Below are positions 15,001 through 18,000 of a DNA stretch of 28,328 bases, piece after piece. The position numbers were made by a program. Source of the stretch: a virus (taxonomy: Duplodnaviria; Heunggongvirae; Uroviricota; Caudoviricetes); IMG/VR virus record IMGVR_UViG_2534682163_000011; one strand, given 5' to 3'. The stretch's first letter is position 1. Each line of letters begins with the position of its first letter.

Positions 15001-18000
15001 CTGTGGGATCACTGAGGCGGTGACGGTGCCTGCCCGGGAAGTGATCCACGATCGGTTTAACTGTTTTTTTCATCCGCTTATAGGGTTGCCGCCGGTGTAT
15101 GCCGCCGGGCTGGCGGCCACGCAGGGGCATCATATTCAGGAAAATTCGACGTCTTTTTTCAGAAATGGCGGCAGGCCGTCCGGGGTGATTGAGATCCCCG
15201 GCAGTATTACGGAAGAAAATGCGAAAAAACTGAAGAGCAACTGGGACAGCGGGTATACAGGCGAAAATGCGGGGAAAACGGCCATTCTGAGCAACGGGGC
15301 AAAATACAACCCCACGACGTTTTCACCGGTGGATGCGCAGACGGTGGAACAACTGAAGATGACCGCTGAAATTGTCTGTTCGGTGTTCCGTGTCCCGGCC
15401 TACAAGATTGGCGTGGGACAACCGCCTTCCAGTGACAATGTGGAGGCGCTGGAGCAGCAGTATTATTCCCAGTGCCTGCAGACGCTGATTGAGTCCATTG
15501 AACTGTTACTGGATGAGGCGCTGGAAACGGGGGAAAACGAGAGTACGGAATTTGATGTCACCACGCTGCTGAGAATGGACAGTGAGCGGCGCATGAAAAC
15601 GCTGGGGGATGCGGTGAAAAATACGCTTCTCACGCCCAATGAGGCCCGTAAACGGGAGAACCTGCCGCCCCTGGCCGGCGGTGATGCACTGTATCTTCAG
15701 CAGCAGAACTACAGTCTGGAGGCGCTGTCCCGTCGTGATGCCCGTGAAGATCCGTTCGCGTCGACCGGGAAAACGGCCTTAGCGCAACCGCCTGACGGCG
15801 CATCTGACGGTAATAAGGCAATCAGTGAAACAGAGCATGATGCGGTGAAAGCTATGTTCAGGGGGGATACTGCGAAAATGACGGAACGGGAACTGTCCAT
15901 TATCCGTGCGCTGGGTGAAGAATTTTCCGCAGTGCTGGCGGATTTACAGCGCACATTTGAGGGGAAAATAGCCGCGCAGGCACAAACGTTTGAAGAAAAA
16001 CTGGCTTCCCTGTCTGTGGTATTACAGAAGTGCGTGACGGGCGATGATGTGCGTCCGATGCTTGAGCAGATGGTGAAGGAGGCGGTAAGCCATATCCCTG
16101 TTCCGCGTGACGGTCGTGACTACGATCCGGAAGTACTGCAGAAGGCGGTGAATGACGCGGTCGCAAATATTCCACAGCCAGCGGACGGTAAAAGTCTCAC
16201 CCCGGATGATGTGCGTCCGATGCTTGAACAGATGGTGAAGGAGGCGGTAAGCCATATCCCTGTTCCGCGAGATGGTCGTGACTATGATCCCGATGTACTG
16301 CAGAAGGCGGTGAATGATGCGGTCGCAAATATTCCTGTACCGGCGAACGGTAAAAGTATCACTCCCGATGATGTGCGTCCGATGCTTGAGCAGATGGTGA
16401 AGGAGGCGGTAAGCCATATTCCTGTTCCGCGCGACGGTCGTGACTATGATCCCGATGTTCTGCAGAAGGCGGTGAATGATGCGGTCGCAAATATTCCGCT
16501 GCCGGCAGACGGTAAAAGTATCACCCCGGATGATGTGCATCCGATGCTTGAACAGATGGTGAAGGAGGCGGTAAGCCATATTCCTGTTCCGCGTGATGGT
16601 CGAGACTACGATCCGGATGTTCTGCAGAAGGCGGTTCTGGATGCGGTGAGTGCCCTGCCGGCTCCGCAGGACGGGCGTGATGCCACGGCACTGGAAATAC
16701 TCCCCGCCATTGACGATCAAAAATCCTTTCCCCGGGGCACGTATGCCACACACCAGGGCGGACTCTGGCGGGCGTATGAAAAAACGCACGGGATGCGGGG
16801 ATGGGAATGCCTGGTTGACGGGGTGGCGGATATTGACGTCAGTATGACGGGTGAACGGTTGTTCTCTGTGGTGGTCCGGCAGAGCAGCGGTCAGCGTACG
16901 GAAAAAACATTTTCCCTGCCGGTGATGCTCTACCGCGGTGTGTTCAGAGCCGGTGAAACCTACCACCCCGGCGATACGGTGACATGGGGGGGCTCGCTGT
17001 GGCACTGCAACAGTATGACCGGTGATAAACCCGGAGAAGCTCATTCATCAGCCTGGACCCTGGCTGCAAAACGTGGGCGGGATGCAGGAGGCGGAAAATG
17101 ACGGCATTACTGACACTGGAAGAGATCAAGGCGCATCTGCGTGTCGACCATGACGCGGATGATGACATGCTGATGGACAAGGTTCGTCAGGCTACCGCCG
17201 TGCTGCTGGCCTACATTCAGGGCAGCCGGGATAAAGTGATTCGTGAGGACGGTGAACTGATCCCGGGCGAGGCATTAACCCGGATGAAGGGGGCTGCCAT
17301 GCGGCTGACCGGGATGCTGTACCGGAATCCGGATCTTGCGGAGCGGGAAGAACTGCTTCAGGGGGAGCTGCCGTTTTCTGTTTCCGTGCTGATTTACGAT
17401 TTGCGTTGTCCGACGGTGTTATGAGGAGGGGGAATGGCAATATATGCAGGTCGTCTGACACAGATGATAAGTGTTCTGAACCCGGTGTTAACCCGTAATG
17501 CTGCCGGAGAAATGACGGAAGAATGGGTGTCATGCGGGAAAATTCATGCGGATATCCGTGGCAGGAGCAGCCGGGAGCGGATGCAGTCCGGTGCGGAAAT
17601 GGCGCAGGCGGAAATCCGCATCTGGGTGCGCGGTCAGTCCGGTCGGGAAATCACGGCAGCGTCACGACTTCATGTGCTGAGTGGTCCATGGCGTGACCGG
17701 ATCCTGAACGTTGTCGGGCTGCCCGTGCCGGATGCGACCGGCGGGCGTCTGGAAATTCTCTGTCGGCTGGGAGGGGAAAAATGATCGAAACCCTGCTGGA
17801 TTTTTCGGGGCTGGAGGACATCAGCCGCGATTTGCAGCTTCTGAGTGGTGCGGAAAATAACCGGGTGCTGCGTGAGGCAACTTGTGCGGGTGCGAATGTG
17901 CTGAAAGAAGAAGTGGTGTCACGGGCACCGGTGCGCAGGGGAAAACTGCGCCGCAATGTGGTGGTCCTTTCCCGGCGCTCCCGCGATGGCGGGATGGAAT

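What the first reader, a model, noticed from the sequence alone, without database searches (positions are those of the whole stretch)
15900..17101. Portal protein with ~450-aa C-terminal extension: in-frame 162-bp tandem repeats and a CBM5/12-like motif
The portal domain occupies roughly the first 400 aa. The extension contains about 3.7 near-identical tandem copies of a 54-aa unit (16043-16640). Such nucleotide identity makes copy number prone to recombinational expansion or contraction. The last ~120 aa contain YHPGDTVTWGGSLWHCNSMTGDKPGEAHSSAWTL, which fits the chitin-binding type 3 / CBM5_12 pattern (aromatic-x2-GD-x-V-x-aromatic-x-G-x-aromatic...PG...W) as I recall it, with a weaker copy upstream (TYATHQGGLWRAYEK...W). 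A carbohydrate-binding-like module on a portal is unexpected, since portal C-termini usually lie inside the capsid. It may be a fused internal or ejected protein or an unrecognised packaging-related domain.
Basis: partly seen in the sequence, partly recalled or inferred. Interest (0 to 1): 0.6.

Follow-up and report, generated by a model that had tools for sequence, protein, structure and literature searches.

The report
Portal gene fused to neighbouring fibre gene
The long "tail" on this prophage's portal protein is really the neighbouring gene, which encodes a repeat-rich fibre-like protein with a chitin-binding-type tip, joined on by one extra G in a run of Gs; the fusion points to an undescribed protein family that probably works at the portal.

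Summary
ORF 14516-17101 encodes 861 aa: an HK97-type portal (aa ~45-423), 3.7 in-frame 162-bp repeats (16043-16635), and a C-terminal all-beta domain that matches chitin-binding (CBM5/12) modules by fold.

The "extension" is not an evolved part of the portal. In 28 of 28 related loci from other genera, and in many E. coli phages (1717, BP-4795, Lys8385Vzw), aa 455-861 is a separate gene, here called X. X starts at a conserved Met, and its start overlaps the portal stop (ATGA in the E. coli G5 phages).

In the window a G5 run has become G6 (15861-15866), which puts the two genes in frame. This run is also X's Shine-Dalgarno sequence and the portal's Arg-Gly codons. Both states are common in IMG/VR (57 G5, 41 G6). 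The state switched at least 7 times, and fused loci look as intact and constrained as split ones.

X belongs to a large family (6,684 cluster representatives) with no Pfam or NCBIfam model and no solved relative found. Members have an N-terminal helix, a variable stalk and the conserved C-domain. Repeat copy number ranges from 0.7 to 6.7.

X's function and its location in the virion were not shown. A second, independent portal-X fusion supports a physical link to the portal.

The parts
14516..15877 (+). HK97-family portal gene proper (aa 1-454). In split (G5) relatives it ends ...AMFRGILRK*, 454 aa.
   Evidence: Pfam PF04860 aa 54-382 at E 6.5e-81. TIGR01537 aa 45-388 at E 1e-104. PDB portals 9lbn and 8cez align to aa 43-423. 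The G5 loci give a 454-aa portal ORF in 42 of 42 cases.
15861..15866 (+). G6 homopolymer, the fusion point. G5 in relatives gives two genes; G6 here puts portal and X in one frame. The run also forms the Shine-Dalgarno-like AGGGGG 11 nt upstream of X's ATG and encodes the portal's Arg-Gly.
   Evidence: Alignment of the window with phages 1717, YYZ-2008, 2851 and Pantoea. Coordinates. An SD-like motif lies 9-13 nt upstream of the X start in all genera examined. IMG/VR exact-match scans: 57 G5 loci and 41 G6 loci.
15878..17101 (+). Gene X (aa 455-861, 407 aa), fused here to the portal. Its own ATG (Met455, 15878-15880) and SD are retained. Its stop TGA 17099-17101 overlaps the ATG of the Ad1 head-tail adaptor gene (17098).
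   Evidence: Stand-alone homologues start at M[NDT]ER[ED]LS. X is a separate gene in Pantoea, in 28 loci of other genera, and in phages 1717, FSL SP-016, RHph_X2_26, BP-4795 and Lys8385Vzw.
15878..16042 (+). N-terminal long alpha-helix of X (aa 455-509), the likely coiled-coil or docking segment.
   Evidence: AlphaFold model of X: helix at residues 2-52, pLDDT about 90. A comparable N-terminal segment is present in distant family members.
16043..16690 (+). Stalk of eight 27-aa half-repeats (four 54-aa units, the last diverged): a short helix followed by an extended IPxPxDG(K/R)(D/S) linker. TRF array is 16043-16635.
   Evidence: TRF period 162, 3.7 copies, 91% matches, no indels. Register printed. 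The model shows eight 13-17-residue helices separated by 12-13-residue linkers at low pLDDT.
16670..17098 (+). Conserved C-terminal all-beta domain of X (aa 719-861): CBM5/12-like motif 1 (aa 738-769, 16727-16822), a beta-meander insert (aa 770-810), and CBM5/12-like motif 2 (aa 816-849, 16961-17062).

Best explanation
The 861-codon ORF is two genes joined by a one-base insertion.

Shown:
- The ancestral and near-universal layout of this head module is protease-capsid gene, portal gene (443-471 aa), gene X, then the Ad1 adaptor gene.
- X starts at its own Met 4-17 nt before the portal stop in the chromosomal loci examined (4 nt after it in Rhizobium phage RHph_X2_26).
- An SD-like motif (AGAGGA, AAGGAG or similar) lies inside the last portal codons (..Met-x-Arg-Gly..).
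- In the E. coli lambdoid/Stx prophage lineage these codons read AGG GGG. G5 to G6 shifts the portal frame into X and gives portal(1-454)-X(455-861).

X is a fibre-like protein. It has a ~50-residue N-terminal helix. Its stalk is built from 27-aa helix-plus-PxPxDG half-repeats, and in other family members from true collagen Gly-X-Y repeats, which suggests a trimer. The stalk length changes by whole 54-aa units. It ends in a strongly conserved ~140-aa domain made of two CBM5/12-like beta modules.

Inferred: X is a low-copy accessory of the portal vertex. It is translationally coupled to both the portal and the adaptor, and two independent fusions link it to the portal C-terminus. The C-termini of solved tailed-phage portals (crown domain) face the capsid interior (established knowledge, not tested here). 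The fused copies should therefore be tethered inside the head at the crown. Free X may still be made from the retained internal SD and ATG.

My estimates: about 0.5 that X normally docks by its N-terminal helix on the extra C-terminal helix of this portal family, that is inside the head; about 0.35 that it is an external neck or collar fibre whose fused copies are merely tolerated. Carbohydrate or peptidoglycan binding by the tip is plausible but untested.
For: Fusion point and cause:
- G6 versus G5 alignment and coordinates.
- G5 loci give a 454-aa portal plus a separate X; G6 loci give 807-1023-aa fusions.

Separate X elsewhere:
- Pantoea.
- 28 of 28 loci from Enterobacterales, Pseudomonas, Marinobacter, Haliea and Burkholderiales.
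- Isolated or induced phages FSL SP-016, RHph_X2_26, BP-4795 and Lys8385Vzw.

Polarity and population data:
- SD-like motif conserved upstream of X in all genera; only E. coli has a homopolymer there.
- G5 is inferred at the root, with at least 7 state changes among 96 sequences against about 31 for shuffled labels.
- Nearest neighbours share the state 91% of the time.

The fusion is tolerated:
- 41 G6 loci against 57 G5 loci.
- The exact protein occurs on 408 contigs.
- Neighbouring head and neck genes are at least as intact in G6 loci as in G5 loci.
- X pN/pS is 0.26-0.38 in G6 and 0.21-0.27 in G5.
- A second, independent 1237-aa portal-X fusion occurs in two metagenomes, in the same module.

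Architecture:
- Collagen Pfam hits in 12 of 50 family representatives and CBM_5_12 in 37 of 50.

Precedent: C-terminal portal fusions in T4 lie within the capsid and are tolerated at up to about half of the subunits (PMC3012670).
Against: - No virion proteomics or structure exists for any member, so the presence, copy number and location of X in particles are all inferred.
- Collagen-like or CBM-tipped fibres are, as far as I know, external in characterised phages. An acidic stalk (pI 4.6) is not what one expects beside packed DNA.
- In T4 only about half of the portal subunits could carry a C-terminal fusion. In G6 phages all twelve would, unless cleavage or ribosomal slippage supplies unfused portal.
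- That fused-state phage 2851 is infectious rests on my memory of Strauch et al. 2008, which I could not read.
- The IMG/VR loci are dominated by heavily sequenced E. coli clones, so 41 loci represent far fewer independent events.
Confidence: 0.8

Rival explanations
1. X is an external neck or collar fibre, analogous to T4 fibritin or lactococcal neck-passage structures. Its CBM5/12-like tips would bind polysaccharide on cells or mucus. The G6 fusion then traps the fused copies inside the head, and phages survive because the fibre is dispensable or because free X is still made from the internal start.
For: - The architecture (helix, variable stalk, collagen repeats in 12 of 50 relatives, CBM-like tip) matches external phage fibres.
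- The best structural neighbours include tail fibres of phages Pa193, 7-7-1, Milano and A-1(L).
- The gene sits directly upstream of the adaptor and head-closure genes.
- From memory, T4 wac lies next to neck genes 13 and 14.
- SD and ATG of X are intact in the fused allele.
- The stalk is acidic, and its length varies freely.
Against: - Two independent in-frame fusions to the portal C-terminus, which should face inward, persist with X still under purifying selection.
- The tip domain is 50-60% identical between E. coli prophages and those of Pseudomonas and Burkholderiales, which is unusually conserved for a host-surface-binding module.
- No N-terminal anchor domain exists beyond one helix.
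Confidence: 0.35
2. The G6 allele is simply a damaging frameshift carried by defective prophages. The fused portal would be non-functional and would persist only through clonal expansion and recombination among E. coli O157-type prophages.
For: - G5 is ancestral, and every other genus keeps the genes apart.
- Several GenBank records label the region a pseudogene, though from the alignment lengths (2585 of 2586 bases) these appear to be split-state alleles flagged against the fused reference.
- The sample is clonal and dominated by pathogenic E. coli.
- T4 tolerates fusions in only about half of the subunits.
Against: - G6 loci have terminase, capsid, adaptor, closure and tail genes at least as intact as G5 loci.
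- Within G6 lineages, portal pN/pS is 0.09 and X pN/pS is 0.26-0.38.
- G6 occurs in phage 2851, deposited as an isolated phage genome and, from memory, infectious.
- An unrelated fusion (P0129) recurs in two samples.
Confidence: 0.15
3. The G run is a regulatory device. It could work as a heritable phase-variable switch, or as a site of ribosomal or transcriptional slippage that sets the ratio of free portal, free X and portal-X fusion.
For: - At least 7 G5/G6 switches occur among 96 sequences, including one haplotype with both states.
- In the G5 allele, the sequence CGA AAA TGA with AGGGGG 9 nt upstream resembles known SD-stimulated -1 shift sites. A -1 slip of tRNA-Lys there would read straight into X's ATG (sequence; the resemblance to dnaX and B. 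subtilis cdd is from memory).
- In G6, a +1 slip in the run would restore the normal portal end.
Against: - Five or six Gs is short for a contingency locus or for transcriptional slippage.
- X lies in different frames relative to the portal in different genera, and the slippery context is not conserved.
- States are mostly inherited by lineage.
Confidence: 0.1
4. One reading: an evolved portal C-terminal extension, a native domain of the portal such as a packaging-related module or a P22-like barrel.
For: A single uninterrupted 861-codon ORF, annotated 'phage portal protein' in NCBI and modelled end to end by PHROG 2271.
Against: - The extension has its own start codon and SD.
- It is a separate gene in 28 of 28 loci from other genera and in many E. 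coli phages.
- It differs from the split state by one G.
- Of the 150 best family representatives, only 2 of the 50 scanned carry a portal domain.
Confidence: 0.03

Closest known systems
HK97-family portal proteins (Pfam PF04860, TIGR01537; solved examples 8cez/8fql HK97, 9lbn, 6tba RcGTA)
   Same: aa 43-423 align over the full length of solved portals, and the family models are matched far above their cut-offs.
   Different: Canonical members end near aa 425. This family has a further ~30-residue tail (aa 424-454), and in the window 407 more residues from the next gene.
CBM5/12 chitin- or cellulose-binding modules (ChiB and ChiC chitin-binding domains, ChiA1 ChBD, EGZ CBD, tandem CBM12 of Vibrio chitin deacetylase)
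   Different: The window sequence is below the Pfam cut-off. The two modules are separated by a ~40-residue beta-meander. The whole 140-aa domain has no significant global match. No binding data exist, and the context is a phage head-neck module rather than a glycoside hydrolase.
SPP1 gp7 / Mu gpF (MuF) minor head proteins
   Same: Encoded immediately downstream of the portal gene. gp7 binds the portal and is carried inside the head in a few copies (PMC5576092). This is the best functional analogy if X is internal.
   Different: No sequence or Pfam similarity. MuF proteins are globular, not fibre-like.
T4 fibritin (wac) and lactococcal neck-passage/collar-whisker proteins
   Same: Segmented helical or fibrous stalk with a small C-terminal domain, and genes placed beside the head-completion genes. 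Lactococcal virion appendages carry carbohydrate-binding modules (from memory).
   Different: No homology detected. Attachment of X to the neck is untested. Fusion to the portal C-terminus is not expected for an external whisker.
Engineered T4 gp20 C-terminal fusions and the natural P22 portal barrel
   Same: Extra polypeptide on the portal C-terminus lies within the capsid and can be compatible with packaging (PMC3012670; P22 barrel from memory).
   Different: In T4 only about half of the subunits could be fused. The P22 barrel is an integral helical extension, not a captured neighbouring gene.

Membership tests
HK97-family phage portal (PF04860 / TIGR01537) | Match to the family model above the curated cut-off over the whole domain | tested here: met
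   PF04860: 272 bits against a cut-off of 39.1, aa 54-382. TIGR01537: 350 bits against 112, aa 45-388. Solved portals align to aa 43-423.
CBM5/12 carbohydrate-binding module | Sequence match to PF02839 above the gathering score | tested here: not met
   Window protein: 18.7 bits against 26.2, E 0.0018. Relatives do better: 37 of 50 at E<=0.01, best 2.3e-7. PF02839 is precomputed for many Klebsiella and Salmonella homologues.
CBM5/12 carbohydrate-binding module | Small antiparallel beta fold superimposable on solved chitin-binding domains | tested here: met
CBM5/12 carbohydrate-binding module | Binds chitin, cellulose or another glycan through exposed aromatic residues | not testable with these tools
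Collagen-like trimeric phage fibre | Runs of Gly-X-Y matched by PF01391 | tested here: not met
   No Collagen hit in the window protein. 12 of 50 family representatives have one, best E 6.3e-22. Trimer formation is therefore inferred for the family and not shown for this member.
MuF / SPP1 gp7 portal-associated minor head protein | Phage_Mu_F or Phage_min_cap2 domain | tested here: not met
   No such Pfam hit in X or in 50 relatives. Only the gene position (immediately after the portal gene) is shared.
Programmed ribosomal frameshift site | Slippery sequence and frame relation conserved among relatives | tested here: not met
   X lies in different frames relative to the portal stop in different genera, and the A AAA TGA context is not conserved.
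Phase-variable homopolymer (contingency locus) | Tract length varies among close relatives and switches gene products on or off | tested here: inconclusive
   G5/G6 polymorphism with at least 7 inferred changes and one mixed haplotype. The tract is short, and states are mostly inherited by lineage.

The most novel reading that the evidence does not exclude
X defines a new class of portal-anchored virion component. It would be a trimeric fibre of variable length tethered to the inward-facing crown of the portal, lying on the capsid axis. It would leave with the DNA so that its tandem CBM5/12-like tip engages the glycan strands of peptidoglycan. The G5/G6 tract would act as a heritable toggle between non-covalent and covalent attachment.
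Probability: 0.12. Interest if true: 0.75.

Novelty: new variant of a known kind. Interest (0 to 1): 0.45.

Why it matters
- **Annotation.** Thousands of database entries called "phage portal protein" (for example cluster 1 with 6,387 members, and PHROG 1289, 'portal protein') are wholly or partly a different protein. X has no Pfam or NCBIfam model and no solved relative found here, although the profile search finds 6,684 cluster representatives.
- **Biology.** Conserved translational coupling and two independent fusions are "Rosetta-stone" evidence that X works with the portal. Matched G5 and G6 phages (BP-4795 or Lys8385Vzw against 2851) form a natural experiment on how much cargo a portal C-terminus can carry and on where X sits.
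- **Assembly.** The 162-bp repeats vary in copy number and break short-read assemblies, which matters for typing Stx prophages.

Tried and rejected
- **Sequence search of solved structures.** The portal part matches known portals. X gives only noise (a designed helical repeat at E 0.022), and the protease-capsid protein gives nothing.
- **Whole-domain fold searches.** No significant global match in the PDB with Foldseek, and only low-TM local matches in BFVD. The afdb50 library was not available.
- **NCBIfam on X.** Nothing meaningful.
- **Characterised phages carrying X.** Two tblastn searches of the phage collection found only the E. coli Stx/lambdoid group plus FSL SP-016, RHph_X2_26, EBPR siphovirus 3 and SOVA965. 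None has virion proteomics that I could find.
- **Literature searches.** Searches on portal extensions, collagen-like head fibres and CBM5 with portal found no description of this protein. Strauch et al. 2008 on phage 2851 is not held.
- **First pN/pS attempt.** It was invalid because indels misaligned the codons. It was redone on codon alignments. The G5 portal value (0.53) there is probably still inflated by frameshifted loci.
- **Programmed frameshifting as the main explanation.** Rejected because neither the frame nor the slippery context is conserved.
- **Minus-strand ORF 16022-17044 (340 aa).** Treated as a by-product of the repeat; no test was run on it.
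Full report
**1. What is in the window**

ORF 14516-17101 (+) encodes 861 aa. The N-terminal part is an ordinary HK97-family portal:
- Pfam Phage_portal covers aa 54-382 at E 6.5e-81.
- TIGR01537 covers aa 45-388.
- Solved portals 9lbn and 8cez align to aa 43-423 and to nothing beyond.

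Tandem Repeats Finder reports a 162-bp period, 3.7 copies, 16043-16635, 91% matches and no indels. In protein terms this is eight 27-aa half-units, each a short helix plus IPxPxDG(K/R)(D/S), covering aa 510-725. Units 1-3 are 90-93% identical in DNA and almost identical in protein, so most differences between units are silent. The quoted CBM-like peptide is at aa 816-849.

The window is a lambdoid Stx-type E. coli prophage. It is 93-97% identical to phages YYZ-2008, 2851 and 1717 (genus Pankowvirus) over this gene.

**2. The "extension" is the next gene**

Searching with the last 162 aa returned mostly stand-alone proteins of 220-284 aa from E. coli, Salmonella, Klebsiella and Pantoea. They begin M-(N/D)-E-R-(E/D)-(L/M)-S, which matches window residues 455-461 (MTERELS).

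- In Pantoea the portal is 452 aa, and a separate 284-aa gene overlaps its stop.
- In phage 1717 the portal is 454 aa, and a 407-aa gene starts at an ATGA overlap.
- BP-4795, Salmonella phage FSL SP-016, Rhizobium phage RHph_X2_26 and the plaque-purified Stx1 phage Lys8385Vzw all keep the two genes apart.
- A scan of one genome per species returned 30 loci. In the 28 that cover the junction, the order is always protease/capsid, portal (443-471 aa), X (290-556 aa) and Ad1 adaptor. These loci come from Enterobacterales, Pseudomonas, Marinobacter, Haliea and Burkholderiales. The genes overlap at each junction and are never fused.

I call the downstream gene X.

**3. How the fusion arose**

Aligning the junction shows a single difference. 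The window, YYZ-2008 and 2851 read TTCAGGGGGGATACTG (G6, window 15861-15866). Phage 1717 reads TTCAGGGGGATACTG (G5).

- With G5 the portal ends ...AMFRGILRK-TGA, and the TGA overlaps X's ATG.
- With G6 the portal frame reads ...AMFRGDTAK-M-TERELS... straight into X.

In every genus an SD-like motif (AGAGGA, AAGGAG or GGGAG) lies 9-13 nt before X's start, inside the portal's conserved Met-x-Arg-Gly codons. Only the E. coli lineage spells these codons AGG GGG, which creates a slippage-prone homopolymer. X's SD and ATG survive in the fused allele, so free X could still be made. That is an inference.

**4. Population picture**

- Exact-match scans of IMG/VR found 57 G5 loci and 41 G6 loci.
- G5 loci give a 454-aa portal in 42 of 42 cases. 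G6 loci give fusions of 807, 833, 859, 861, 915 or 1023 aa.
- On a neighbour-joining tree of the flanks the root state is G5, with at least 7 changes among 96 sequences. Shuffled labels give about 31.
- Nearest neighbours share the state 91% of the time, and one haplotype is mixed.

The state is therefore heritable but has switched several times, by slippage or by recombination. G6 loci are not decayed:
- Terminase, capsid, adaptor, closure, gp10-like, terminator and tail-tube genes are at least as often intact in G6 loci as in G5 loci.
- X shows pN/pS of 0.26-0.38 in G6 lineages and 0.21-0.27 in G5 lineages.
- The exact window protein occurs on 408 contigs, named "phage portal protein".

A second, unrelated fusion also exists. 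P0129 is 1237 aa, has about 25 PEPEPLPDI-type half-repeats, and sits in the same head module in two independent metagenomes.

**5. Repeat copy number**

Complete X proteins fall into classes of 245, 299, 353, 407, 461, 515 and 569 aa. These are steps of one 54-aa unit, from 0.7 to 6.7 copies, and they occur in both G5 and G6 backgrounds. Half-unit and 2-aa variants (379 and 405 aa) also occur. Lys8385Vzw, a plaque-forming phage, has the shortest form.

Many database entries are "partial", which fits short-read contigs ending in or near the repeats.

**6. What X is**

A profile of the C-terminal 142 aa, searched against 1.84 billion representatives, gave 6,684 hits at E<=1e-3 and 514 at E<=1e-30. 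Nearly all of the best 150 are 200-500-aa proteins with the domain at the extreme C-terminus. Among 50 representatives:
- 37 hit CBM_5_12 (best E 2.3e-7).
- 12 hit Collagen (best E 6.3e-22).
- Only 2 carry a portal domain.

Family members share three parts: an N-terminal helix; a variable stalk made of helix-PxPxDG repeats or Gly-X-Y collagen; and the conserved domain, often followed by a GRDGKDG tail.

AlphaFold gives the C-domain at pLDDT 90.7, all beta. For whole X it gives a helix at residues 2-52, then eight 13-17-residue helices separated by 12-13-residue linkers at low confidence, then the beta domain.

Structural comparisons of the C-domain:
- A PDB profile search hits the Chitinase 60 ChBD at E 3e-4.
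- Foldseek finds no significant whole-domain match.
- BFVD neighbours are mostly phage collagen-repeat or CBM5/12 proteins, at low TM.
- The two halves of the domain align to each other at P 0.002, so it is a tandem CBM5/12-like unit with a beta-meander insert.

X is acidic (pI 5.0; stalk pI 4.6).

**7. Mechanism: shown and inferred**

Shown: the one-base origin of the fusion, the separate-gene ancestry, the architecture, the copy-number variation and the CBM5/12-like fold.

Inferred: X is a low-copy portal-vertex component, because it overlaps and is probably translationally coupled to both the portal and the adaptor, and because it has fused to the portal twice. Portal C-termini (crown) face the capsid interior in solved tailed-phage portals (established knowledge, not tested here). 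T4 gp20 C-terminal GFP fusions lie within the capsid and are tolerated at up to about half of the positions (PMC3012670). Fused X should therefore hang from the crown inside the head.

This portal family has about 30 extra C-terminal residues with an amphipathic helix (..AVKAMFRGIL..). That helix is a candidate docking site for X's N-terminal helix.

Against an internal role: the architecture looks like an external fibre, the stalk is acidic, and X lies just upstream of the neck genes.

My estimates are internal crown docking about 0.5, external neck fibre about 0.35, and other about 0.15. Genes immediately after portal genes often encode portal-bound internal proteins such as SPP1 gp7 (PMC5576092), but X is not homologous to them.

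**8. Comparison with known families and novelty**

The portal part is a member of the HK97 portal family. The tip has the CBM5/12 fold but falls below the Pfam cut-off on this sequence, and its binding is untested. X is not a MuF protein.

A programmed frameshift is not supported, because frames and slippery context differ among genera. A phase-variable switch is possible but weakly supported.

The fused ORF itself is already in databases as "phage portal protein", and PHROG 2271 models it end to end. I could not find three things described in the literature searched:
- that the ORF is two genes joined at a G run that doubles as an SD;
- that X is a large uncharacterised family;
- that natural fused and split pairs exist.

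I rate it a new variant of a known kind, of moderate interest.

Noticed in passing
window 23892-25055 (+): A 387-aa Gram-negative porin gene (Pfam Porin_1, E 5e-143) sits inside the tail-gene block, directly after the gpM-like minor tail gene (23352-23693). It looks like a cargo gene ('moron') inserted in the tail operon.
   Followed up: no
window 12367-14304 (+); loci L125-L131: Prohead protease (Peptidase_S78) and major capsid protein are one 645-aa polypeptide here and in all Enterobacterales and Pseudomonas relatives. In Burkholderiales and Haliea relatives the same region is two genes (~200 aa + ~460 aa). This is a second fused/split polymorphism in the same head module.
   Followed up: partly
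window 14349-14570 (+): A conserved 73-aa ORF lies between the capsid and portal genes and overlaps the portal start. It has no Pfam hit. Small ORFs occupy the same position in YYZ-2008 (gp53), BP-4795 (ORF57), Pantoea L004 (6476-6631) and L138 (6822-6983); their homology to it was not tested.
   Followed up: no
L138/L139 7001-10714: An independent 1237-aa portal-X fusion with about 25 PEPEPLPDI-type half-repeats, found in two separate metagenomes (JGI 3300012997, ENA ERZ27245351) in the same type of head module. Its junction differs from the E. coli one.
   Followed up: partly
window 1697-3715 (+): A 672-aa protein with DUF1737, a SASA sialate O-acetylesterase domain and DUF6645. It resembles the NanS-p type esterase common in Stx prophages.
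   Followed up: no
window 18635-19351 (+): The major tail tube protein carries a C-terminal immunoglobulin-like domain (Ig_3, Ig_2, I-set).
   Followed up: no
window 16022-17044 (-): A 340-aa antisense ORF spans the repeat array. It is probably a by-product of the repeat; no evidence of coding was sought.
   Followed up: no
window 5831-6403 and 7200-7742 (+): Two nearby antirepressor-type genes share an ORF11CD3 C-terminal domain but have different N-terminal domains (P22_AR_N and Phage_pRha).
   Followed up: no
family-wide (P0136, P0190 and others): Many X homologues continue past the conserved domain with a short basic GRDGKDGRNG... tail. The segment just before the domain is also Gly-X-Y-like (DGxDGRDA). 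The window protein ends KRGRDAGGGK.
   Followed up: no
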